Positions 1 to 34,613 of a stretch of DNA of 34,613 nucleotides are shown in pieces; position 1 is the first letter of the stretch; every line of letters begins with the position of its first letter. The notes beneath the pieces were generated by a model, which saw only the letters and a list, made by a program, of their open reading frames with translations, was not told the DNA's origin and made no database searches. The DNA is from a virus. The stretch lies in the IMG/VR virus record IMGVR_UViG_3300045988_126502, positions 1 through 34,613 of that record; one strand, given 5' to 3'. Position numbers and translations under genes: made by a program.

Positions 1-119
1 GCGATGTTATTCCAATGAGACTAAAAGATAATAACAATATGGCTATAAAAATAAGAATAGCAAGTACTAGTAGAAAGATTGGAAAATCAGGTGCGTATAG
101 ACTTATATGTTATGCAGAA
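1..119. repeat. Terminal direct repeat, copy 1 (identical to 34495-34613); circular-closure overlap
   Basis: Bases 1-119 match bases 34495-34613 base for base. The window starts and ends exactly on the repeat. Confidence 0.95.
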
Positions 120-170
120 CAGGAAAATGTAAAAGTTGATATACAAATAGAAAGAAGGAAAAACGAATGA
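1..170 (+). CDS. RelE/ParE-family toxin, C-terminal part (the ORF starts at 34368 and continues across the circular junction; first full codon at 3)
   Basis: The frame is continuous with 34368-34613 and the TGA stop is at 168-170. The joined 98-aa protein carries '...KFERDLKKL...' and '...GKSGAYRLICY...', which resemble the RelE/HigB/Gp49-type 'GKSGGYRxIY' signature. Confidence 0.7.
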   Translation, partial: DVIPMRLKDNNNMAIKIRIASTSRKIGKSGAYRLICYAEQENVKVDIQIERRKNE

Positions 171-271
171 AAAAGAAAGTAAATAAAAAAACAAAGCAGA
201 AGATTAAAGAATATATTTATTGTGCAATATTTGGATTGTTTTGGGCAGCATTTATAGCAATAGGATTTTAG
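167..271 (+). CDS. Tiny membrane peptide (34 aa), hypothetical
   Basis: ATGA start/stop overlap with the toxin gene. The peptide is MKKKVNKKTKQKIKEYIYCAIFGLFWAAFIAIGF: a basic N-terminus followed by one hydrophobic helix. It is below the ORF-track size cutoff. Confidence 0.35.
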   Translation: MKKKVNKKTKQKIKEYIYCAIFGLFWAAFIAIGF

Positions 272-280
272 GAGGGAAAA

Positions 281-457
281 ATGGAAACAACAAGACCGAG
301 AGGAACAGATAAAGCAGAAGTTATGAAAGTTATAAAGACAACATCATTATTGGGACGAGGAACGGAAAAAGACCCAGTAAGATATATTTATCAATACTGG
401 GATTTTGAAGGAAATTTGTTGGCTAGTCATGATACTTTAGACGAGACTACTGATTAG
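281..457 (+). CDS. Hypothetical small protein (58 aa)
   Basis: GGAGGG RBS 5 nt upstream of the ATG at 281. The protein is METTRPRGTDKAEVMKVIKTTSLLGRGTEKDPVRYIYQYWDFEGNLLASHDTLDETTD. Its 3' end overlaps the convergent gene 447-1127 by 11 nt. Confidence 0.5.
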   Translation: METTRPRGTDKAEVMKVIKTTSLLGRGTEKDPVRYIYQYWDFEGNLLASHDTLDETTD

Positions 458-1127
458 ATTTAATTTGTTTTTGAGATTTTTTATCATCGGCAATAGCGGT
501 AATATCATATAAAAGTTGTTCTTCATCATGACGAGATATATACCATTTATCAACTAAAAGCTCTATCAACTTTAACAATTTTTGAGCTTCGTCAGGGTCA
601 ACATCAATAATTACATTAACATCACTTTCCATGTGCGCACCAATGTTGCCAACAGAACGAAGAGAATCTATAGCCTTCCATTGCGTAGGAGGAACTAAAC
701 TTTGGAGAACAGTAATTTCATCAACTAAACGAGGTTTCACAATTCCAAAAAAATCTCGAATCATTCCTTGTAAGCAACGACGAGCAAGAGTAGCAGAAGC
801 CTTAGGACTTAAATTGATTATAGAATATGCTTCTTCATAATCTTCTCGAATAGATTGAGGAATATAATCAGGAAATTGTTTAGCTAAAGAATTAGGATAA
901 AGAGGAATAGAAATATTTTCTAGAAGTTCTTTACCGTTAGCAACAAAACTAACTTTATTACATTCAGGACAACTAAACATATCTATTTGAAAAATTGCAG
1001 AATTTTCACAATTATCATCGTCTGAAAAATGTGGAGTTCCTTTATTAAAGAAACAAGATATGTTTCGGTATGTTGTTGAAATAATAGGAACTGAAGAATT
1101 ACAGAATGGACACATAAAACTAGACAT
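447..1127 (-). CDS. Zinc-ribbon + DUF4145-like (HEPN-related?) protein; candidate defence/exclusion gene
   Basis: This is the only convincing minus-strand gene. It has a GAGGTG RBS. The N-terminus has CPFC...CPEC (a four-Cys ribbon). The C-terminal half has '...SPKASATLARRCLQGMIRD...ITVLQSL...IDSLRSVGNIGAHME...DEAQKLLKLIELLV', which matches my memory of the DUF4145 pattern (R..GN.gAH). Confidence 0.65.
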   Translation of the reverse strand: MSSFMCPFCNSSVPIISTTYRNISCFFNKGTPHFSDDDNCENSAIFQIDMFSCPECNKVSFVANGKELLENISIPLYPNSLAKQFPDYIPQSIREDYEEAYSIINLSPKASATLARRCLQGMIRDFFGIVKPRLVDEITVLQSLVPPTQWKAIDSLRSVGNIGAHMESDVNVIIDVDPDEAQKLLKLIELLVDKWYISRHDEEQLLYDITAIADDKKSQKQIKSNQ

Positions 1128-1167
1128 AATAACACCTCACTTTCTAAAATATTTTTAGTATGAGGTA

Positions 1168-1196
1168 ATTATACATAATTTTACAAAATTTTACAA
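1168..1196 (-). promoter_or_regulatory. Sigma-A type promoter for the antisense gene (TTGTAA-17-TATAAT on the minus strand)
   Basis: The reverse complement of 1168-1196 reads TTGTAA, then a 17-nt spacer, then TATAAT. It sits about 40 nt upstream of the ATG at 1127. Confidence 0.6.
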
Positions 1197-1213
1197 GAAA
1201 GGAGGACAAGAAT

Positions 1214-1459
1214 ATGGTAGATACAATATTAACAATACTACTTTTTATAGTCTTAATTGAAGTAATAATTAATACATACTTATGGAACAGACAAAAAGAG
1301 ATAGTTGAAGATTTGGCAGAAGATTGCAACAATTTTATAGACACAGAATTAGAACTAGAAAGCATTATATTAAGTGCTAAAGCAAACAAAGAATTACCAT
1401 TTGTTACAGTAGAAAAAATAGAAAAAGTACTATTTCCAGACAACAAACAAGTGAAATAG
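1214..1459 (+). CDS. Hypothetical early protein with N-terminal TM helix
   Basis: AAAGGAGG RBS. The N-terminus 'VDTILTILLFIVLIEVIINTYLW' is hydrophobic. Confidence 0.55.
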   Translation: MVDTILTILLFIVLIEVIINTYLWNRQKEIVEDLAEDCNNFIDTELELESIILSAKANKELPFVTVEKIEKVLFPDNKQVK

Positions 1460-1537
1460 TACCCAAACTTATTAGTAAATATTTTTACTTTTTATATTTT
1501 ACTACATAAGAAATAAAAAGTCAAGGAGGAACGCAGA

Positions 1538-1753
1538 ATGGAACTACAAGACAGATACGACGAACTAGACAATTTAATAAGCTCACTTAATTCGTTAATG
1601 GACGAATTAACAGATAAGAATTATATTGAACAGCTAGAGCTTATTAAATATGAAGCACAAAACGAATTTGAAGACGTGTCAGAACAATTAAGTGCAGAAC
1701 AAGAAAGAGAATATGCAGAAATAAATTATCAATACGAGAGGAGTGTAATTTAA
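1538..1753 (+). CDS. Hypothetical acidic coiled-coil protein
   Basis: AAGGAGG RBS. 71-aa acidic ORF with a TAATG overlap onto the next gene. Confidence 0.55.
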   Translation: MELQDRYDELDNLISSLNSLMDELTDKNYIEQLELIKYEAQNEFEDVSEQLSAEQEREYAEINYQYERSVI

Positions 1754-2400
1754 TGTTAAAAAGTTATGAAGAATTAAGAAAAGTTGATGTAAGTAAATGG
1801 GTAGAACAAAGAGATGGAGCAGACTATTTGAATTGGGCAAAAGTTGTTGATTTATTACACGAAAACGGAGCTGAAAAAGTTTATTTTGAACCCGTTGTAA
1901 ATGAATTGACAGGAAGTAGCTTATATATGACAGATAAAGAATTTGAAGACAGCAAAGGAAATATAAACAGAGTGTACGAAACTGCAGTAAAAATTGTAAT
2001 AGATGATTTAGAGTTTATTCAAAGAGGACCTGTTACAAACGGTTCAAATCCAGTAAAAGACAACTCTATGAGCCAACAAAGGTTATGGAATTGTCAAACT
2101 AGATTATTCGTTAAAGGAGTTGCTATAAGAACTGGTTTAGGATTTGATTTATGGTTAAAAGAAGAATTAAAAGACTCTAAAAATAACTGGGAAGATGATT
2201 TATCAAGACATGACATATTTAAGATAAAAGAAAGATGTCAACAAATTTATACTCAAAAACTAAAAGAAGGATTATCAGTAAAAGAAATTGCTGAAAAATT
2301 ACACAAAACAGAAGACGAAGTAAAAGCATTATTTAGTTATTTTGATACTTTAAGTAATTTTGAGAGAGATTTAGCTAACATTGATACAAAATCAAGATAG
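1753..2400 (+). CDS. Rad52/Sak-like single-strand annealing protein (DUF1071-like)
   Basis: '...ADYLNWAKVVDLLHENGAEKVYFEPV...' resembles the Sak/Rad52 N-terminal signature. It lies directly upstream of an exonuclease-like gene, the usual recombination-pair arrangement. Confidence 0.55.
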   Translation: MLKSYEELRKVDVSKWVEQRDGADYLNWAKVVDLLHENGAEKVYFEPVVNELTGSSLYMTDKEFEDSKGNINRVYETAVKIVIDDLEFIQRGPVTNGSNPVKDNSMSQQRLWNCQTRLFVKGVAIRTGLGFDLWLKEELKDSKNNWEDDLSRHDIFKIKERCQQIYTQKLKEGLSVKEIAEKLHKTEDEVKALFSYFDTLSNFERDLANIDTKSR

Positions 2401-2944
2401 AAGTGGTTACATAGGTGCATCAGATACAAGTATGGCTGTTGGAAATTGGAATACAAAAACATTTGAAAACTGGTGGTTAATTAAACTAGGACTTAGTAGA
2501 AACAATTTTTCAACAGAAGCTACTAAAGCAGGTAATAATTATGAACACAAAATATTACAAGCACTAAATATTCCAAATTTAGAGATGGACAAGCAAATAA
2601 TAATAGATAGATTAAGGGTGAATTTGGACGGGAACACAGCTGATTGCATTTATGAGGTTAAAACTCACAACATTGACAAAGAATTTAAAGTATCAAAGCA
2701 ATATTGGAGACAGGCACAGGTTGAAATGTATGCTTTTAATACAAGAAATTTATATATAGTTTCTTATGCATTAGAAGAAAAAGACTATAAGAATTATTTT
2801 AACGAAATAGATATTGATAGAGTGAAGTTTCACAAAGTAGATTATGATGAAGACTTTATAAGCAAAGAGTATTTACCAAGACTACAAATATTAAGTAAAT
2901 GTTTGAAAAAAGGAGCTTTTCCATGCAAACTACAGGAATTATAA
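2381..2944 (+). CDS. YqaJ/lambda-Exo-like PD-(D/E)XK recombination exonuclease
   Basis: TTG start. Motifs 'YIGASDTSMAVG', 'NLDG', 'IYEVKT' and 'QAQVEMYAF' fit the YqaJ viral recombinase pattern (D...EVK). Confidence 0.55.
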   Translation: MIQNQDRSGYIGASDTSMAVGNWNTKTFENWWLIKLGLSRNNFSTEATKAGNNYEHKILQALNIPNLEMDKQIIIDRLRVNLDGNTADCIYEVKTHNIDKEFKVSKQYWRQAQVEMYAFNTRNLYIVSYALEEKDYKNYFNEIDIDRVKFHKVDYDEDFISKEYLPRLQILSKCLKKGAFPCKLQEL

Positions 2945-3474
2945 ATGATATTAGTATAGATTTTGACACACGAAAACCAAAAATAAGCATAGTTTTAGAT
3001 ACGAATGAGATAAGTGCTGTCGAACAACTTAAAAACGAAAATAAGCTAAATATTGAGCTAAAGAAATGGTATAAAAAGAGGTCCTTAGATGCTAATTCAT
3101 ATTGTTGGGTTCTATGTGATTTAATTGCAAAAAAATTAACAACAAATGATGCAGTAATAACAAAAGAAGATATATACAAAGATGCAATTTCAAATATAGG
3201 CACATTTCAAGCCATAATAATAGAAGAGAAAGCATTTGAAGATTTTAAAAGAATTTGGCAGAATCAAGGATTAGGTTTTTTAGTAAGAGAGATTTCGAGA
3301 AAAGACAAGTGCGTAAAAGTACAAGCTTACTATGGCTCTAGTACATACAACACAAAAGAAATGAGTTTATTGATTGAATTACTAATACAAGAATGTAAGC
3401 AATTAGAAATAGAAACTAAGACACCAGCTGAAATAAAGAGTTTGTTAGACAGTTGGAGTGGCACTAATAGATGA
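2923..3474 (+). CDS. NinB-like/HNHc_6-like recombination-associated protein (tentative)
   Basis: AAAGGAG RBS before the ATG at 2923. 'KKRSLDANSYCWVLCDLIAKKL' resembles the RSLxQN motif of NinB-type proteins. The assignment is weak. Confidence 0.35.
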   Translation: MQTTGIINDISIDFDTRKPKISIVLDTNEISAVEQLKNENKLNIELKKWYKKRSLDANSYCWVLCDLIAKKLTTNDAVITKEDIYKDAISNIGTFQAIIIEEKAFEDFKRIWQNQGLGFLVREISRKDKCVKVQAYYGSSTYNTKEMSLLIELLIQECKQLEIETKTPAEIKSLLDSWSGTNR

Positions 3475-3535
3475 ACAAAACCCCACCTTTTATTGTTATT
3501 GTTAGTGCCACGCGCCCTTTAAATAAGGAGGCAAT

Positions 3536-3820
3536 ATGAAATCGATATTACAAGAAGAAAAAAGATGTTATATATGTGGACTATATAGTCCAGTAGAAGA
3601 ACATCATATATATTTTGGAAATCCAAACAGAAGAATATCAGAAGAAAATGGATTTAAAGTTTGGTTATGTGCTGAACATCATAGAGGAACTATTGGAGTA
3701 CATGGCAAACTAGGACATAGTTTAGATTTAAAGTTAAAAGAAACTTGCGAGAAAAAGTACATAAATTTGGGACATACAAAAGAAGAATTTATAAGATTAA
3801 TAGGTAAAAATTATTTATAG
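3536..3820 (+). CDS. HNH-type zinc-finger nuclease-like protein
   Basis: The layout 'CYICG...EEHHIYFG..NRRISEENG...LCAEHHRG..GVH' fits a CxxC / HH / N / CxxHH beta-beta-alpha-metal fold. Confidence 0.45.
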   Translation: MKSILQEEKRCYICGLYSPVEEHHIYFGNPNRRISEENGFKVWLCAEHHRGTIGVHGKLGHSLDLKLKETCEKKYINLGHTKEEFIRLIGKNYL

Positions 3821-3831
3821 GAGGATTTAAA

Positions 3832-4431
3832 ATGAAATTTAAAATTGGAGATAAGGTAAAGGTAGTTAAATGTGAAATTTTAGGAGAATGTTGCGGAAAT
3901 ATTAACAAAATTTCTACAATAACACAAGTAGAAAAGGATGTGCCTTATCCATATATGTTAAAAGATTTAGATGAAGTTTTTAGAGAAGATGAACTAGAAC
4001 TAGTACAAGAAAAACAATTTACAAAAGCTGATTTAAAAGACGGAGATAAATGTACATTAAAAAATGGACAAGTTATATTTGTTGACAAGACTTCAAATTA
4101 TGGTTTTAGCAACATTAATGAACAATTAAAATATTTTAATGATGATGTAAGTATCGTCAAGGTAGAAAGACCAGTAAAATATGAAACAATGTTTGAAAGA
4201 AAAGAAGAGATATTAGACGAGGTAGAGAAGAAGTATTTAGTAGATGTTGTTAGACCTTTTAGGAGTAAAGTTAGATCTGTTTATAAGATGGCTCCTATTT
4301 GTAGCAATAAAGAATTTATAAATATACAACTGAGAGATGAGAATTTTACTTTACCATACTTTAAAAAAGGAACAATGTACAAAGAAATGCAAACAGGTAA
4401 ACGATACACATTAGAAAAATTAGGAATATAA
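3832..4431 (+). CDS. Hypothetical protein
   Basis: GGAGG RBS. 199-aa ORF with no motif I recognise. Confidence 0.55.
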   Translation: MKFKIGDKVKVVKCEILGECCGNINKISTITQVEKDVPYPYMLKDLDEVFREDELELVQEKQFTKADLKDGDKCTLKNGQVIFVDKTSNYGFSNINEQLKYFNDDVSIVKVERPVKYETMFERKEEILDEVEKKYLVDVVRPFRSKVRSVYKMAPICSNKEFINIQLRDENFTLPYFKKGTMYKEMQTGKRYTLEKLGI

Positions 4432-4435
4432 CAAC

Positions 4436-4470
4436 AAGGGCTAGACAACAAAAACTAGCCCTTTATTTTA
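4436..4470 (+). terminator. Intrinsic terminator-like hairpin
   Basis: AAGGGCTAG (4436-4444) pairs with CTAGCCCTT (4455-4463): a 9-bp stem with a 10-nt loop, followed by TATTTTA. Confidence 0.55.
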
Positions 4471-4485
4471 CGAAAGGAGAAAACA

Positions 4486-5217
4486 ATGAAAGACCCAGCA
4501 TTTCTATTTTATAGTAGCGATTTTCTTTCTGGAACGATGTTAATGACAGATGAAGAAATAGGGCAATATATAAAATTAATATGTTTACAACATCAAAAAG
4601 GTCATTTGAAAGAGAAAGATATATTAAACATATGTAAAACACATAATGAAGAAATTTTCTCCAAATTTAAAATTGATGAAGAAGGCAATTACTATAATGA
4701 AAGACTAGAAACAGAAATTAATAAACGCAAAGCATATTCAGAAAGTAGAAGAAATAACAGAAAGAAAAAAGAAGAGAAAACAACATATGAAGAAGATATG
4801 AAAAACATATGTAATTCATATGAAGAACATATGGAAAATGAAAATATAAATATAAATAAAAATATAATTAAAAATAAAGATAGAGATAAAGGGGTTATAG
4901 GGGAAGAAGAGGAAGAGACAAAAATCTTAGACATGTGGGAGACACAATTTAATGACTTTTATAGCCTATATCCTAAAAAGGTAAAAAAGCAAGATGTGAA
5001 GAAATGGTTTCAAAAAAATAAACCATCGAATGAATTGTTTAGTTCTATGTTATATAGTTTGGAACAATTTAGGGCCAGTAAAGAATGGCAAAAAGATGGT
5101 GGACAATTTATTCCATATCCTTCTACCTGGTTAAATCAAAAAAGGTGGGAAGACGAAGGTATAGAACAAATGAGACCAATGTCAGCACTACAGAGAGCTT
5201 TCGAAGAAGGGAGATAA
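4486..5217 (+). CDS. Replisome organizer / replication initiation protein (N-terminal DUF1376-like)
   Basis: 'DPAFLFYSSDFLSGTMLMTDEEIGQYIKLICLQH' is a typical DUF1376 N-terminus. The C-terminal 'GQFIPYPSTWLNQKRWEDE' is typical of phage replication proteins. Confidence 0.6.
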   Translation: MKDPAFLFYSSDFLSGTMLMTDEEIGQYIKLICLQHQKGHLKEKDILNICKTHNEEIFSKFKIDEEGNYYNERLETEINKRKAYSESRRNNRKKKEEKTTYEEDMKNICNSYEEHMENENININKNIIKNKDRDKGVIGEEEEETKILDMWETQFNDFYSLYPKKVKKQDVKKWFQKNKPSNELFSSMLYSLEQFRASKEWQKDGGQFIPYPSTWLNQKRWEDEGIEQMRPMSALQRAFEEGR

Positions 5218-5218
5218 A

Positions 5219-5767
5219 ATGACAAGACAAGAAACAGTAGTAATATTAACTCTACTTGCTGGAAACTATGAGAGTTTTGCTAAAAGAACCGAAACAGATG
5301 AACAAGTAAAAATAATGGTAGATACATGGCAAGAGTGTTTAGGGGATTTAGATTATAACTTAGTTTTACAAGCAGTAAAGAAAACGATAATTGAAAGCCC
5401 ATATCCTCCTACAATTCATGAAATTAGAAAAAATGCAGTAGAAATGATAAATCCAAGCACATCAAGAACAGCTATTGAAGCATGGAACGAAGCATATAAA
5501 ATGATTTGTTCTGGCTCATATATGACACAAGAGCAGTTTGATATGGCAAGTCCAGAGGTCAAAAGATTTTTCGGAGATGTTAGACAAGTAAAAGAACTAG
5601 CGCAAACAGATATAGCAACAGTAAATAGTGTAACAAAGGGGCAATTCTTAAAACAATATGAGGTTATAGTAAATAGAGAAAAAGAGCAAAAACTATTACC
5701 ACAACAAATGCAAAATTTTATAGAACAAATTGCGGATAAAATGAGTGTAAAACAGATAGGAGTGTGA
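5219..5767 (+). CDS. G39P-like helicase loader/inhibitor
   Basis: 'VDTWQECLGDLDYNLVLQAVKKTIIESPYPPTIHEIRKNA' resembles the G39P N-terminal domain. It sits directly after the replisome organizer. Confidence 0.5.
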   Translation: MTRQETVVILTLLAGNYESFAKRTETDEQVKIMVDTWQECLGDLDYNLVLQAVKKTIIESPYPPTIHEIRKNAVEMINPSTSRTAIEAWNEAYKMICSGSYMTQEQFDMASPEVKRFFGDVRQVKELAQTDIATVNSVTKGQFLKQYEVIVNREKEQKLLPQQMQNFIEQIADKMSVKQIGV

Positions 5768-5774
5768 TTAACAA

Positions 5775-6095
5775 ATGATTACAGCAGAAACAAAACAAAT
5801 GAGTTTTAATGACATACAAGATAAAGCAAAAATAAGATATATACAAATTTTAAATAGATTGGAGAAACCTAAAACAGCAAAGGAATTAGCAGTAGAACTA
5901 TTTGATTTAGGTTTTACAAATACAACAGAGAGGAATTATACAGCACCAAGATTAACAGAATTAGAGAAAATGGGATATGTAAAAACAATAGGTAAAAAGA
6001 AATGCGATTATACAGGTAAGACAGTAGCAGTATATGAGAGAACACAGTCAGGATTTGAGGCATTGAATTACGAACATATTCCAAGAATAGATTAG
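5775..6095 (+). CDS. Winged-helix DNA-binding protein (MarR-like fold, tentative)
   Basis: 'PKTAKELAVEL...APRLTELEKMGYVKTIGKKK...GKTVAVYE' looks like an HTH followed by a wing. Confidence 0.4.
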   Translation: MITAETKQMSFNDIQDKAKIRYIQILNRLEKPKTAKELAVELFDLGFTNTTERNYTAPRLTELEKMGYVKTIGKKKCDYTGKTVAVYERTQSGFEALNYEHIPRID

Positions 6096-6104
6096 GAGGT
6101 AGTT

Positions 6105-6350
6105 ATGATAATAGTAAGTCAAGATAAATGTACAATAGTAAACTTTAATAATATACAAAATATAAGAATTGAGCCTTATGGCACGCACATAAAAAGTAAA
6201 AAGATATATAAAATATTTGCAGGAAATTTTGAGGGCTATGCGACAGAATTAGGTACTTACGATACAGAAGAAAGAGCAGAAGAAATATTAAGAGATATTG
6301 TACATTGGTATGAGATAGATGCTAAAGTGTACAATATGCCAGAGGACTAG
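6105..6350 (+). CDS. Hypothetical protein
   Basis: GGAGG RBS. 81-aa ORF. Confidence 0.5.
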   Translation: MIIVSQDKCTIVNFNNIQNIRIEPYGTHIKSKKIYKIFAGNFEGYATELGTYDTEERAEEILRDIVHWYEIDAKVYNMPED

Positions 6351-6353
6351 CCT

Positions 6354-6542
6354 ATGAAACAATTAAAAGATATGAAAGGTATATGTAAGTACTGTACAGG
6401 TTGTTTAAGATTGGAAGATGAAAATTTCCAAAGTAGATACAGATGCAAGGATTTTGAGGCTAATCAAATAAATTGGAAGGATCTCATAGAAAAGGAGTTA
6501 TTAAATGAACAAGTACAGAAACAGAAAAATAGTAGTAGATAA
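6354..6542 (+). CDS. Hypothetical Cys-containing small protein
   Basis: 62-aa ORF containing CKYCTGC...C. Confidence 0.4.
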   Translation: MKQLKDMKGICKYCTGCLRLEDENFQSRYRCKDFEANQINWKDLIEKELLNEQVQKQKNSSR

Positions 6543-6834
6543 CATAAAGTTTGACAGTGTTTTAGAGGCAAACAGATATAGAGAACTAATGCTATTACAA
6601 AGAGCAAAAGAAATAAGCAACTTAAGACTGCAAGTGCCGTTTATATTGCAAGAAGGATTTAAGAAGAACGGTAAGACGCACAGAGAGATAAAGTATATAG
6701 CAGACTTTGTTTATGAAGAAAGAGGACAAACTGTTGTAGAAGATACAAAGGGCATATGTACTGAGGTTTTTAGAATTAAGCAAAAATTATTTGAGTATAA
6801 ATATCCAGATTTAGAGTTAAAGATTATTAAGTAG
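6505..6834 (+). CDS. DUF1064-like protein (PD-(D/E)XK, putative Holliday-junction resolvase-like)
   Basis: 'KYRNRKIVVDNIKFDSVLEANRYRELMLLQ...YIADFVY...VEDTKG' matches the DUF1064 pattern as I remember it. Confidence 0.6.
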   Translation: MNKYRNRKIVVDNIKFDSVLEANRYRELMLLQRAKEISNLRLQVPFILQEGFKKNGKTHREIKYIADFVYEERGQTVVEDTKGICTEVFRIKQKLFEYKYPDLELKIIK

Positions 6835-6843
6835 GAGGAGAAG

Positions 6844-7266
6844 ATGAATAGAGAAATAAAGTTTAGAATTTGGGATAAATATGAAAAACAAATGTATCCG
6901 ATAAGTAGTATAGATTATGATATTTTTTCACAAGAAATAAGGATAATAGCAATTGGACATAAAAATGGTATGTGTACATCTTATAACAAAAATCACAATT
7001 CAGAAAAATGCGATATAACAGCATTAGAACTAATGCAATATACAGGACTACATGATAAAAACGGAAAAGAAATATATGAGGGGGATATCGTTGGTGATAA
7101 TAAAATAAAGTGGATTGTAAAATGGAATAAACATAGAATGGGTTTTAGTTTATATCCTACAACTGAACAATTATATGATGAAATGCCTATAAATGTAGAA
7201 AACAAATTAGGTTTTAAAATATTAGGAAATATATATGATAATCCAGAGTTATTAGGAGGAGAATAG
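6844..7266 (+). CDS. YopX family protein
   Basis: 'REIKFRIWDK...QYTGLHDKNGKEIYEGDIV...GNIYDNPELL' is the hallmark YopX pattern. Confidence 0.7.
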   Translation: MNREIKFRIWDKYEKQMYPISSIDYDIFSQEIRIIAIGHKNGMCTSYNKNHNSEKCDITALELMQYTGLHDKNGKEIYEGDIVGDNKIKWIVKWNKHRMGFSLYPTTEQLYDEMPINVENKLGFKILGNIYDNPELLGGE

Positions 7267-7268
7267 AT

Positions 7269-7655
7269 ATGCTAAATTATAAAGAAAATGATAAAAAATT
7301 AATTGAAAGTGGAAGATACAAATATTATGACTTTACAGAAGAAATAGTACAAAATATAGTAAGTAAACAGATAAATGATGTAGAAAATACAGAGTGGAGA
7401 ATATTACTACAAATGTTATATCCAAGAAATATGATTGGAAGCGGATTATTTCAACCGATATTGATATTTAAAATAAGTAAAAATGGAAAGAGAGTAGATC
7501 CACCATTAGAGGCTTATAATTCTATAGATGATTTGAAAGAAAATACATGCTTACTATTCAAAATAATAGAACATACCAAAAAAAATAGTACATTTGAAAT
7601 AAATGATAGCTGGTACAATGCGAAAGAAAGAATACTAAAAGAGAGGAAAAATTAG
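7269..7655 (+). CDS. Hypothetical protein
   Basis: GGAGGAG RBS. 128-aa ORF. Confidence 0.5.
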   Translation: MLNYKENDKKLIESGRYKYYDFTEEIVQNIVSKQINDVENTEWRILLQMLYPRNMIGSGLFQPILIFKISKNGKRVDPPLEAYNSIDDLKENTCLLFKIIEHTKKNSTFEINDSWYNAKERILKERKN

Positions 7656-7657
7656 AT

Positions 7658-7916
7658 ATGCTTAAAATTCGTGATGATGTAGATTTAAAAGAACTTGAAA
7701 AATATCGGATACGAATTATTAGAATATGATAATTATTACAGAAAATATGAAAAAGATTATCGAGTTCAGATAAACATTTTTGATAGAAAAATTTTAGTAT
7801 TTAAGAAAAGAAAAAATAGCAACTGGGGAGATTATATAGGGTATAGTGGAGAAGAAGAAAAAATAAAAGAATATATACAAGATTTAATCAAAGCAAATTT
7901 AGTAGGAGAGGAGTAA
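7658..7916 (+). CDS. Hypothetical early protein; needs a +1 frame change at CGG 7706-7708 to be read as one product
   Basis: The ATG at 7658 has a GAGAGG RBS and gives MLKIRDDVDLKELEKY, then CGG, with a stop at 7727-7729. The +1 frame continues GYELLEYDNYYRKYEKDY...IQDLIKANLVGEE to 7916. The track's TTG start at 7695 has no RBS. The joined 'ELEKYGYE' parallels 'FEELGYKK' in the neighbouring paralog-like gene at 8075. Confidence 0.5.
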
Positions 7917-7923
7917 ATAAGAT

Positions 7924-8091
7924 ATGAGTAATGAAGAAATAGCATTAAAACTAACTATTGCAATGATAAAAGGAATGGGGCAAGCAGGAGATACACCCAA
8001 TAATCCTTACGAAGTTGTAAGTGATTATAAAACAATATTAAATGAAATAAGAAAAAAGAGAGGAGTGATACATAGTGAAAACAGCAGATGA
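7924..8091 (+). CDS. Hypothetical small protein (55 aa)
   Basis: GGAGAGGAG RBS. The product is MSNEEIALKLTIAMIKGMGQAGDTPNNPYEVVSDYKTILNEIRKKRGVIHSENSR. It is below the track cutoff. Confidence 0.45.
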   Translation: MSNEEIALKLTIAMIKGMGQAGDTPNNPYEVVSDYKTILNEIRKKRGVIHSENSR

Positions 8092-33954: not shown

Positions 33955-33983
33955 TTGACAAAAATAGAATTAAATGTTACAAT
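33955..33983 (+). promoter_or_regulatory. Near-consensus promoter TTGACA-17-(TGt)TACAAT upstream of the TA module
   Basis: TTGACA at 33955-33960, a 17-nt spacer ending in TGT, TACAAT at 33978-33983. Confidence 0.6.
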
Positions 33984-34157
33984 TATATTACAAATATTAC
34001 AGAAATAAGTTGTTTTTGTTAATATTTTGTTACAATTATTTATTTTTTAAAATACTTTGTTATAATCTTAGTGGAAATATTTTGCTATTATCGCAGAATA
34101 TGACACTTTTTTTCTTATTTGATGTATTATAATATATCAAAAGAAAGGAGTGTACTT

Positions 34158-34361
34158 ATGAGAAAGATTGGAGGAGTAAATATGGATGCAATAGCTCATT
34201 TAACAGGTAGACTTACAAAAGAAAAAGAAAACAAGAGATATTGTACAGTATATGAATCTCTTGAACAAAGTTTAAAGGAAGTAAAATTAATTAAAGATGG
34301 TAAAATTAAGCCAAAGACATGGAGAGAACTTCTTAAAGAATTGAAAGAGGATGGAGAGTAG
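34158..34361 (+). CDS. Putative antitoxin of the RelE/ParE-type module
   Basis: AAAGGAG RBS before the ATG at 34158 (an alternative ATG is at 34182). It is small and charged, and ends 6 nt before the toxin start. The C-terminus 'SLEQSLKEVKLIKDGKIKPKTWRELLKEL' resembles small antitoxin-like proteins. Confidence 0.5.
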   Translation: MRKIGGVNMDAIAHLTGRLTKEKENKRYCTVYESLEQSLKEVKLIKDGKIKPKTWRELLKELKEDGE

Positions 34362-34367
34362 ATAAAA

Positions 34368-34613
34368 ATGCAATATGAAGTCATACCAACACCAAAATTT
34401 GAAAGAGATTTGAAAAAACTAGGAAGAAAAGATAAAGGTATAGGAAATGATATTGAACCAGTTTTAGAAAAATTGGAAGAAGGAGATTTTCAAGGCGATG
34501 TTATTCCAATGAGACTAAAAGATAATAACAATATGGCTATAAAAATAAGAATAGCAAGTACTAGTAGAAAGATTGGAAAATCAGGTGCGTATAGACTTAT
34601 ATGTTATGCAGAA
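34368..34613 (+). CDS. RelE/ParE-family toxin, N-terminal part (continues at 1-170 across the circular junction)
   Basis: The ATG at 34368 begins MQYEVIPTPKFERDLKKLGRKDKGIGNDIEPVLEKLEEGDFQGDVIPMRLKD.... There is no stop before the window end, and the frame continues into 3-170. Confidence 0.7.
   Translation, partial: MQYEVIPTPKFERDLKKLGRKDKGIGNDIEPVLEKLEEGDFQGDVIPMRLKDNNNMAIKIRIASTSRKIGKSGAYRLICYAE
34495..34613. repeat. Terminal direct repeat, copy 2 (identical to 1-119)
   Basis: Same 119-nt string as the window start. It lies inside the toxin ORF, which reads through the junction in frame. Confidence 0.95.

What the first reader, a model, noticed from the sequence alone, without database searches (positions are those of the whole stretch)
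447..1196. Lone antisense gene: zinc-ribbon + DUF4145-like protein with its own strong promoter, a candidate defence/exclusion effector
This is the only gene on the minus strand. It is driven by TTGTAA-17-TATAAT (1168-1196 reverse complement) and a GAGGTG RBS. It converges on, and overlaps by 11 nt, the accessory operon on the + strand. The protein combines a four-Cys ribbon (CPFC...CPEC) with a C-terminal helical domain carrying 'LRSVGNIGAHME'. I recognise this as the DUF4145 signature. From memory, that domain is often linked to restriction/abortive-infection loci and has been proposed to be HEPN-related. This architecture in this position suggests a phage-carried immunity or exclusion function.
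Basis: partly seen in the sequence, partly recalled or inferred. Interest (0 to 1): 0.6.

Follow-up and report, generated by a model that had tools for sequence, protein, structure and literature searches.

The report
Phage RAZR-like suicide RNase with partner
The lone opposite-strand gene of this gut-Clostridia phage is a new member of the known RAZR (PD-T7-4) family of anti-phage suicide RNases, and it always travels tail-to-tail with a small uncharacterised phage gene that may keep it from firing on the phage that carries it.

Summary
ORF 447-1127(-) encodes 226 aa with an invariant Cys4 ribbon (C6/C9/C53/C56) and a DUF4145 domain carrying R157-x7-H165.

Pfam DUF4145 matches at E=4e-11 and PADLOC PD-T7-4 matches full length at E=4e-18. 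The solved RAZR structure (PDB 9y9c) matches at E=1e-12, with R157/H165 on catalytic R146/H154. The gene is therefore a member of the RAZR family (Zhang et al., Nature 2026).

Three things go beyond the finding:
1. The gene plus the convergent 58-aa gene 281-457 form a 0.95-kb cassette, 93-99% identical to cassettes in integrated Clostridia prophages.
2. A homologue of the small gene abuts the 3' end, on the opposite strand, in 79 of 79 related viral loci that have DNA there. In 401 Streptococcaceae genomes each gene occurs in 14; 13 have both, always adjacent. I found no paper describing this partner.
3. Unlike its relatives, this complete circular genome has no integrase, repressor or cro.

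Best reading: a ring-activated abortive-infection RNase. The partner as a lytic-cycle antidote is inferred only.

This scan has reported the same cassette on other DNA (e1-1964147, e1-2001131).

The parts
447..1127 (-). RAZR-like gene, 226 aa: zinc-finger domain, linker and DUF4145/HEPN RNase domain
   Evidence: ORF. Pfam DUF4145 E=4e-11. PADLOC PD-T7-4 E=4e-18. PDB 9y9c RAZR E=1e-12. dN/dS 0.08-0.30. AF2 model pLDDT 89.
927..1127 (-). N-terminal Cys4 zinc-ribbon domain, residues 1-67 (C6, C9, C53, C56); the presumed sensor
   Evidence: The four Cys are invariant in 70 homologues. The model is all-beta here. It is the most variable region, 21% mean pairwise identity against 56% for HEPN. Replacements among near relatives cluster at residues 26-42.
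447..857 (-). C-terminal DUF4145/HEPN helical domain, residues 91-226, with the stop codon
   Evidence: Pfam match to residues 98-188. Helices 91-225 in the model. The highest-probability Foldseek hits are HEPN proteins 1wol and 2hsb, but none is significant.
633..659 (-). Codons R157 (657-659) to H165 (633-635): the R-x7-H catalytic dyad
   Evidence: Aligns with RAZR R146...H154. R157, G160, N161 and H165 are each conserved in at least 90% of sequences.
1133..1138 (-). RBS GAGGTG, 5 nt before the ATG
   Evidence: Read from the sequence.
1168..1196 (-). Own promoter TTGTAA-17-TATAAT
   Evidence: Scan, 10 of 12 matches. Conserved in L005/7/8, L009 and the Streptococcus phages. Activity was not tested.
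281..457 (+). Conserved small partner gene, 58 aa, phrog_14088. It converges on the RAZR-like gene and overlaps it by 11 nt.
   Evidence: PHROG E=5e-16. 40% identical to SM1/PH15/IPP16 gp6 in the same arrangement. Present in 79 of 79 viral loci with DNA there. 13 of 14 co-occurrence in both directions in Streptococcaceae. dN/dS of 0.13 or less. AF2 gives a three-stranded sheet, pLDDT 87.
269..1217 (.). Minimal mobile cassette: partner gene, RAZR-like gene and promoter
   Evidence: The block shared at 93-99% identity with prophage loci whose flanks differ.
33955..33983 (+). Near-consensus early promoter TTGACA-17-TACAAT with TG. It is presumed to drive the partner gene and then antisense transcription across the RAZR-like gene.
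   Evidence: 11 of 12 matches, just after the terminator at 33917-33935. No terminator in 1-2000 and no stable hairpin at the gene junction. Read-through is inferred.

Best explanation
Gene 447-1127(-) encodes a RAZR-family protein.

Shown:
- It has an N-terminal Cys4 zinc-ribbon domain and a C-terminal DUF4145/HEPN RNase domain.
- The RAZR catalytic Arg and His are in place as R157 and H165.
- With the 58-aa gene 281-457 it forms a 0.95-kb cassette with its own promoter. The cassette moves as a unit among gut-Clostridia and Streptococcus temperate phages.
- In those phages it sits in the early region but points the way of integrase and repressor.

Inferred from RAZR:
- In a lysogen the protein is made from its own promoter and idles as inactive oligomers.
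- When another phage infects, the zinc-finger domains bind a large ring-shaped phage protein such as a portal or a ring-forming recombinase.
- The HEPN domains are then positioned into active sites, RNA is cut non-specifically, translation stops and the infection aborts.

Inferred from gene arrangement only:
- The small partner is transcribed with the lytic early operon, which then runs antisense through the RNase gene.
- It would therefore switch the RNase off, as an inhibitor protein and/or by transcriptional interference, when the carrier phage itself multiplies and builds its own portal ring.

In this window the lysogeny module has been replaced. The cassette is then either a carried-over relic or works against co-infecting phages.
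For: Family membership:
- Pfam DUF4145, PADLOC PD-T7-4 over the full length and PDB 9y9c RAZR, with R/H aligned.
- C6/C9/C53/C56 are invariant and R157/H165 are conserved in at least 90% of sequences.
- The zinc-finger domain is the most variable part, as reported for RAZR.
- The mechanism of the family comes from PMC13017515.

Prophage context and orientation.

Cassette boundaries.

Partner linkage:
- 78 of 80 viral loci by HMM. One miss was recovered by eye and the other has no DNA downstream.
- All 23 clusters at 60% identity have the partner.
- In Streptococcaceae 13 genomes have both genes adjacent, 1 has only the small gene and 1 has only the RNase gene, out of 401.
- In Clostridia 2 of 399 genomes have the small gene, and both have the RNase gene next to it (adjacency from L100 and L176).
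- Thomasclavelia prophages show the same arrangement.

Both genes are under purifying selection. There is no terminator between the convergent genes. The phage has its own portal and a Sak-type annealing protein.
Against: - No activity, expression or phenotype data exist for this protein or any close relative.
- Identity to RAZR-Ec is low. The zinc-finger domains do not align reliably: the profile puts the second knuckle on RAZR's first. Ring sensing is therefore an extrapolation.
- Foldseek gave no significant PDB hit for the whole model.
- The partner's role is pure inference. It has no recognisable fold or family.
- About half of the RAZR-like genes in bacterial genomes lack the partner. 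One prophage copy, G566, lacks it. The small gene occurs alone in G471 and P0365.
- This phage has no integrase, repressor or cro, so the lysogen-protection logic cannot apply to it as it stands.
Confidence: 0.72

Rival explanations
1. Same family, different trigger. The protein is a DUF4145/HEPN abortive-infection RNase, but its divergent zinc-finger domain senses something other than large phage rings. Alternatively the small partner is the regulated element, as in a toxin-antitoxin pair.
For: The zinc-finger domain is only about 21% conserved and does not align with that of RAZR-Ec. A tightly linked small gene is present, unlike the single-gene E. coli system. DUF4145 is combined with many different N-terminal domains.
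Against: The PADLOC PD-T7-4 profile matches across the zinc-finger domain as well: residues 3-208 on profile positions 13-193 of 211. The linker and the Cys4 ribbon layout are the same as in RAZR. The partner is convergent and sits in the lytic operon, so it would not be co-expressed with the RNase in a lysogen as a classical antitoxin would be.
Confidence: 0.15
2. In this particular phage the cassette is a functionless passenger, inherited when a temperate ancestor lost its integrase, repressor and cro region.
For: L012 is 99.6% identical to window 110-4655 and then carries an S24 repressor and a serine recombinase where the window has two other small genes. The complete circular genome has no integrase, resolvase or HTH_3 domain. 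Early transcription would run antisense across the gene.
Against: The gene, its RBS and its promoter are all intact and 100% identical in protein to copies in other contigs. There is no sign of decay. A defence gene can also serve a lytic or carrier-state phage against co-infecting phages.
Confidence: 0.1
3. It is a DNA-binding regulator, as PHROG 1305 and the RefSeq annotation of SM1/PH15 gp7 say. As the lone leftward gene it might be this phage's repressor.
For: PHROG 1305 is labelled 'DNA binding protein'. RefSeq uses the same name. The gene is transcribed divergently from the downstream part of the + strand early genes.
Against: No HTH or other DNA-binding family matches it. Relatives have their own separate cI and cro genes next to it. 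The conserved residues are the HEPN R-x7-H dyad. RAZR cleaves single-stranded RNA. The main early promoter lies 1.6 kb away around the circular map, at 33955.
Confidence: 0.03

Closest known systems
RAZR (ring-activated zinc-finger RNase, formerly PD-T7-4) of E. coli UMB1727 and Klebsiella variicola; PDB 9y9c; Vassallo et al. 2022 (PMC9519451); Zhang et al. 2026 (PMC13017515)
   Same: Both are about 220 aa. Both have an N-terminal Cys4 zinc ribbon, a conserved proline-rich linker and a C-terminal DUF4145/HEPN domain with an R-x7-H dyad. In both the zinc-finger domain is the most variable part. Both are carried on mobile elements. The sequence match is significant.
   Different: Identity is low and the zinc-finger domains do not align. 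The host is Gram-positive gut Clostridia. The gene is embedded antisense in a phage early operon rather than overlapping an integrase gene. It is paired tail-to-tail with a small conserved gene, whereas the E. coli gene was shown to defend on its own. Nothing has been tested experimentally.
gp7 of Streptococcus phages SM1 and PH15, and IPP16_00008; uncharacterised, annotated 'DNA binding protein' or hypothetical
   Same: 51-53% identical over the full length. Same antisense position in the early region. Same convergent overlap with a homologous small gene, gp6, of 70 aa.
   Different: Those phages are temperate, with integrase, repressor and cro. The overlap is 25 nt rather than 11. SM1 also carries a second paralogue of the same PHROG family (phrog_1305), gp14, which lacks the Arg.
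HEPN toxins of HepT/MntA toxin-antitoxin systems, the minimal HEPN proteins 1wol and 2hsb, and Csm6
   Same: They share the helical HEPN core. They are the highest-probability Foldseek matches: probability 0.94-0.96, TM-score 0.54-0.60 normalised to the target.
   Different: No Foldseek match reaches significance. These proteins have no zinc-finger domain. They have R-x4-6-H rather than R-x7-H. They are controlled by an MNT antitoxin or by cyclic oligoadenylate, not by a sensor domain.
BxaP, a BREX-associated DUF4145 protein (PMC10799925)
   Same: It has a DUF4145 domain in an abortive-infection-type defence protein.
   Different: In BxaP the DUF4145 domain is N-terminal and is fused to a HEAT-like domain. 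It has no zinc ribbon and is not phage-borne.

Membership tests
RAZR / PD-T7-4 | Significant full-length sequence similarity to the family profile and to the solved RAZR protein | tested here: met
   PADLOC PDLC04109 matches at E=3.8e-18, residues 3-208 on profile positions 13-193 of 211. 9y9c_OA matches at E=9.8e-13 with the single sequence and 1.2e-14 with the profile.
RAZR / PD-T7-4 | N-terminal Cys4 zinc-ribbon domain | tested here: met
   CxxC at 6-9 and 53-56, invariant in 70 homologues. The model is a beta-ribbon with pLDDT above 85 outside the 31-40 loop. Residue-level homology to the RAZR-Ec zinc-finger domain was not resolved.
RAZR / PD-T7-4 | C-terminal DUF4145/HEPN domain with catalytic Arg and His eight residues apart (R146/H154) | tested here: met
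   R157 and H165 align on R146 and H154. Both are conserved in at least 90% of sequences.
RAZR / PD-T7-4 | The zinc-finger domain is the most variable region and sets specificity | tested here: met
   Mean pairwise identity is 21% for the zinc-finger domain against 56% for HEPN. 15 of 67 zinc-finger positions vary among near relatives against 7 of 110 in HEPN.
RAZR / PD-T7-4 | Residues for higher-order oligomerisation (D179, D180, R184 in RAZR-Ec) | tested here: inconclusive
   In the alignment, 'VDD..R' of RAZR faces 'VDK...R' of the window protein. One Asp and the Arg are kept and one Asp is Lys. No multimer model could be made.
RAZR / PD-T7-4 | Activation by assembly around phage protein rings about 170 A across; non-specific cleavage of single-stranded RNA; abortive-infection phenotype | not testable with these tools
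   This needs expression, phage challenge and biochemistry. The features themselves are taken from PMC13017515.
RAZR / PD-T7-4 | Single-gene system | tested here: not met
   In this phage-borne branch the gene is tightly linked to a small convergent gene. Whether that gene is needed for function is unknown. RAZR-Ec defends alone.
Pfam DUF4145 (PF13643; HEPN superfamily, clan CL0291) | Score above the Pfam gathering threshold | tested here: met
   43.2 bits against a cut-off of 23.1, covering profile positions 1-87 of 88. The assignment of DUF4145 to the HEPN superfamily is from PMC3710099.
HEPN fold | Helical core structurally similar to solved HEPN domains | tested here: inconclusive
Type II toxin-antitoxin pair (RNase plus small protein) | Co-directional, co-transcribed toxin and antitoxin genes | tested here: not met
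   The two genes are convergent with overlapping 3' ends in every locus examined.

The most novel reading that the evidence does not exclude
The 55-80-aa protein encoded tail-to-tail with the RNase gene (phrog_14088) would be the first dedicated inhibitor of a RAZR-type RNase. It would be made only from the lytic early operon and would protect the carrier phage's own portal-building lytic cycle from the RNase that the same phage stockpiles in the lysogen. Orphan copies, as in G471, would then be free-standing anti-RAZR counter-defence genes.
Probability: 0.3. Interest if true: 0.75.

Novelty: new variant of a known kind. Interest (0 to 1): 0.5.

Why it matters
RAZR is triggered by portal rings, and every tailed phage has a portal ring. 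A prophage that carries RAZR must therefore solve a self-recognition problem when it is induced. I found nothing on this in the RAZR literature I searched.

The phage-borne branch offers a concrete handle on it. It is a two-gene convergent cassette whose small gene is found almost nowhere else. This window adds a natural variant in which the cassette sits in a phage without a lysogeny module.

If the partner is an inhibitor, it would be the first anti-RAZR protein. It would also give a general model for how prophages carry suicide defences safely. If it is not, the gene is still a well-supported Gram-positive phage member of a mechanistically solved defence family that RefSeq records currently mislabel as a 'DNA binding protein'.

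Tried and rejected
Searches that gave nothing useful:
- Megablast of window 1-8000 against phage records found no match.
- Foldseek of the whole two-domain model against the PDB gave no significant hit, and 9y9c itself did not appear.
- Foldseek of the small partner gave nothing at E<=0.001; the top hit was BamE at E=0.77.
- Pfam and NCBIfam have no family for the partner.
- The search for homologous proteins with the partner alignment returned only 300 hits, limited by the word index for such short proteins.
- The phage's Sak-type annealing protein shows no detectable relation to the RAZR trigger Gp77. Its only PDB hit is a weak one to DUF1071, 8qe9, at E=0.43.
- The 98-aa upstream protein matches RelE/StbE only below threshold (E=0.009) and has no PDB match.

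Tools that could not be used as planned:
- The search for related loci with the partner alignment failed because no stretch was conserved enough.

Ideas rejected:
- That the small gene merely marks an insertion hotspot. It is almost never found without the RNase gene.
- That the gene is a repressor. It has no HTH, and its relatives have their own cI and cro.

One weak measure: the crude ORF-strand count is only rough support. The upstream neighbour is divergent in 31 of 36 loci with the partner and in 8 of 29 without it.

Full report
WHAT IS THERE

The window is a complete IMG/VR virus record of 34,613 bp whose first and last 119 bp are identical. I read that as the overlap of a circular assembly, which gives a unit length of 34,494 bp. 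G+C is 29%.

All credible genes lie on the + strand except ORF 447-1127, which has an ATG start and encodes 226 aa. The only other minus-strand ORF that fills a + strand gap is 12481-12801. It overlaps a tRNA-Ser(UGA) gene at 12497-12584 and matches no family.

- The RBS GAGGTG sits 5 nt before the ATG.
- TTGTAA-17-TATAAT lies at 1196-1168.
- The 3' end overlaps gene 281-457 by 11 nt.
- CPFC and CPEC are at residues 6-9 and 53-56.
- LRSVGNIGAHME is at residues 156-167.

The promoter match alone is no better than chance in this AT-rich DNA: 12 sites were found against 11.0 +/- 3.5 in shuffles. It is, however, conserved. The prophage copies L005/7/8 keep it. L009, at 77% identity, has TTTACA-17-TATAAT. 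Streptococcus phages with otherwise unalignable upstream DNA have TGGTATAAT at a similar distance.

WHAT THE PROTEIN IS

Sequence matches place it in a known defence family:
- Pfam DUF4145 matches above threshold (E=4.1e-11).
- The PADLOC model for the defence system PD-T7-4 matches over nearly the full length (E=3.8e-18, residues 3-208).
- PHROG 1305 matches at E=3e-36, but its label 'DNA binding protein' has no support.

PD-T7-4 was found in a functional screen (PMC9519451). It was renamed RAZR when its mechanism was solved (PMC13017515). According to that work:
- It idles as oligomers.
- It polymerises around phage protein rings about 170 A across, either the 24-mer of SECphi27 Gp77 or the portal dodecamers of T3, T7 and SECphi18.
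- It then cuts single-stranded RNA non-specifically and aborts the infection.

The solved chain 9y9c_OA matches the window protein at E=9.8e-13, and R157/H165 fall exactly on R146/H154. A 70-sequence profile gives E=1.2e-14.

In that alignment C6, C9, C53 and C56 are invariant. R157, G160, N161 and H165 are each conserved in at least 90% of sequences.

An AlphaFold2 model has mean pLDDT 89. It shows a beta-ribbon N-domain and a helical C-domain. Foldseek against the PDB gave no significant hit. The highest-probability matches were HEPN proteins 1wol and 2hsb, HepT and Csm6'. This agrees with the RAZR authors' own description of a distant fold similarity.

[quoted passage not shown] Mean pairwise identity is 21% for the ZFD against 56% for HEPN. 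Among near-identical relatives the amino-acid replacements cluster in ZFD residues 26-42. dN/dS is 0.08-0.30.

The family is very large. More than 7,900 homologues scored E<=0.001 among the 8,000 candidates that were scored. There are 3,016 clusters at 50% identity with E<=0.001, and many share only the C-terminal domain.

CONTEXT

The nearest characterised records are Streptococcus temperate phages SM1, PH15 and IPP16, at 51-53% identity. There the homologue (gp7) lies antisense in the early region, a few genes beyond the repressor/cro switch.

Proteins 95% and 70% identical sit in integrated prophages of gut Clostridia MAGs. The order there is always the same:
- integrase or serine recombinase;
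- cI-type repressor;
- cro, transcribed divergently from the repressor;
- two or three small genes;
- a 56-58-aa gene;
- the RNase gene, pointing the same way as integrase and repressor;
- the rest of the early genes.

Window 110-1217 is 93-96% identical to those prophages while the flanks are mosaic. The smallest shared block is 269-1217, which is the 58-aa gene, the RNase gene and its promoter.

THE PARTNER GENE

The 58-aa product of 281-457 (phrog_14088) is 40% identical (E about 1e-9) to gp6 of SM1, PH15 and IPP16. Those gp6 genes converge on and overlap their gp7 in the same way. The neighbours on the other side are unrelated.

I tested this linkage in several sets.

Viral contigs. Of 80 IMG/VR loci encoding relatives at 46-100% identity, 78 have an HMM-detectable homologue of the small protein. 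It is always on the opposite strand and nearly always abuts the 3' end, between a 14-nt gap and a 47-nt overlap, with one 67-nt gap in L089, whose copy looks truncated. One of the two misses ends at the RNase gene. The other has a divergent copy visible by eye. All 23 clusters at 60% identity carry the partner.

Streptococcaceae. In 401 species genomes the small protein is found in 14 and the RNase in 14. Thirteen have both, and in all 13 the two genes are adjacent and convergent. These include a divergent subgroup whose RNase matches only at E about 1e-15. The exceptions are G471, with the small gene alone in a phage early operon, and G566, with the RNase gene antisense in a prophage early region and no partner.

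Clostridia. In 399 genomes the small protein is found in two, and in both it lies next to the RNase gene.

Other cases. A 43%-identical partner in Thomasclavelia prophages has the same arrangement. One homologue, fused or read through from an HTH, lies beside an IS110 with no RNase gene.

Bacterial genomes in general. Among RAZR-like genes the partner is present in 41 of 80 loci. It is absent from the non-Firmicute loci and from loci that are not embedded antisense in an operon.

The small gene is under purifying selection, with dN/dS of 0.13 or less. It is predicted to form a three-stranded sheet plus a short helix, at pLDDT 87. It has no recognisable family or fold. I found no paper that mentions such a partner.

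Earlier agents of this scan reported the same tail-to-tail pairing on other genomes (e1-1964147, e1-2001131). My counts were made independently and agree with theirs.

WHAT IS SPECIAL ABOUT THIS WINDOW

This genome has no lysogeny module:
- There is no tyrosine integrase, serine recombinase or HTH_3 domain in six-frame searches.
- There is no homologue of its relatives' integrase, cI or cro.

Nearly all close relatives have these genes right beside the cassette. L012 is 99.6% identical to window 110-4655 and then continues into an S24 repressor and a serine recombinase.

In the window the endolysin gene (32935-33912) is followed by these features:
- a terminator at 33917-33935;
- a near-consensus promoter at 33955-33983;
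- an 80-aa gene;
- a 98-aa gene with a sub-threshold RelE/StbE match, running across the record junction;
- a 34-aa ORF with a hydrophobic stretch;
- the partner gene.

No terminator or stable hairpin separates the convergent genes. Early transcription is therefore expected to run antisense across the RNase gene. This is an inference.

HOW IT MOST LIKELY WORKS

Shown: the family membership, the catalytic dyad, the Cys4 ribbon, the cassette structure, the orientation and the partner linkage.

Inferred from RAZR: the protein is made from its own promoter in a lysogen and stays inactive until the ZFDs assemble around a ring-shaped protein of an incoming phage. HEPN RNase activity then shuts down translation.

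Inferred from arrangement only: the partner is expressed with the lytic early operon, and the antisense transcription that follows it adds to the effect. Together they would silence the RNase when the carrier phage itself goes lytic and builds its own portal (15104-16738) and Sak-type annealing protein (1753-2400).

For this lysogeny-less phage the cassette may be a relic, or it may act against co-infecting phages.

Rivals, with my odds, are given in the Rival explanations section:
- same family but a different trigger, or toxin-antitoxin-like control;
- a functionless passenger in this phage;
- a DNA-binding regulator.

VERDICT

The gene is a new member of a known, mechanistically solved defence family. 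The tightly linked convergent partner makes the phage-borne form a variant of it.

Noticed in passing
window 34119-34613 continuing into 120-170 across the record junction: The integrase, repressor and cro region of the close relatives is replaced here by an 80-aa gene and a 98-aa gene (MQYEV...GKSGAYRLICY...). The 98-aa protein has only a sub-threshold RelE/StbE match (E=0.009) and a phrog_5869 match. This may be a toxin-antitoxin-like pair in a phage without a lysogeny module.
   Followed up: partly
window 33955-34110: The early promoter region holds a near-consensus TTGACA-17-TACAAT and several repeats of a GTTACAAT/GTTATAAT-like motif. These look like operators, yet the genome encodes no recognisable repressor.
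   Followed up: no
window 12497-12584 (+): A phage-encoded tRNA-Ser(UGA) sits between the two-gene insert 10963-12448 and the packaging genes. It explains away the minus-strand ORF 12481-12801.
   Followed up: partly
window 13801-14355 and 14411-15091: The large terminase is split into two ORFs. Earlier notes of this scan attribute this and six other breaks to +1 frameshifting at CGG codons. The RAZR-like gene has no CGG codon.
   Followed up: no
L001 (Streptococcus phage SM1) 2174-2942 and 3251-4016: SM1 has two further antisense genes in its early region. Each is overlapped at its 3' end by a small convergent gene, gp13 or gp10, and these two are homologous to each other. gp14 is a second phrog_1305 protein (E=8e-73) with a zinc ribbon and 'YIGNDETH', so the Arg is missing. 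gp11 belongs to phrog_3634. This looks like a row of antisense cargo cassettes.
   Followed up: partly
P0269 and P0365 (homologues of the small partner): P0269 (102 aa) is a tandem duplication of the partner domain. P0365 (134 aa) joins a cro-like HTH to the partner domain and lies beside an IS110 transposase with no RNase gene nearby.
   Followed up: partly
L094, L095, L097 (uncultured Bacilli/Firmicutes MAGs): RAZR-like genes 56-60% identical to the window's lack the small partner. In L094 and L095 a co-directional XRE-type HTH gene lies directly upstream, in a chromosomal rather than a prophage setting. An earlier first-reader note, e1-3595820, describes a similar XRE-plus-DUF4145 pair on another genome.
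   Followed up: partly
window 10963-11907: A 314-aa DUF6731 protein (Pfam E=3e-52) and a following 172-aa protein form an insert between the late regulator and the terminase genes. Their function is unknown.
   Followed up: no
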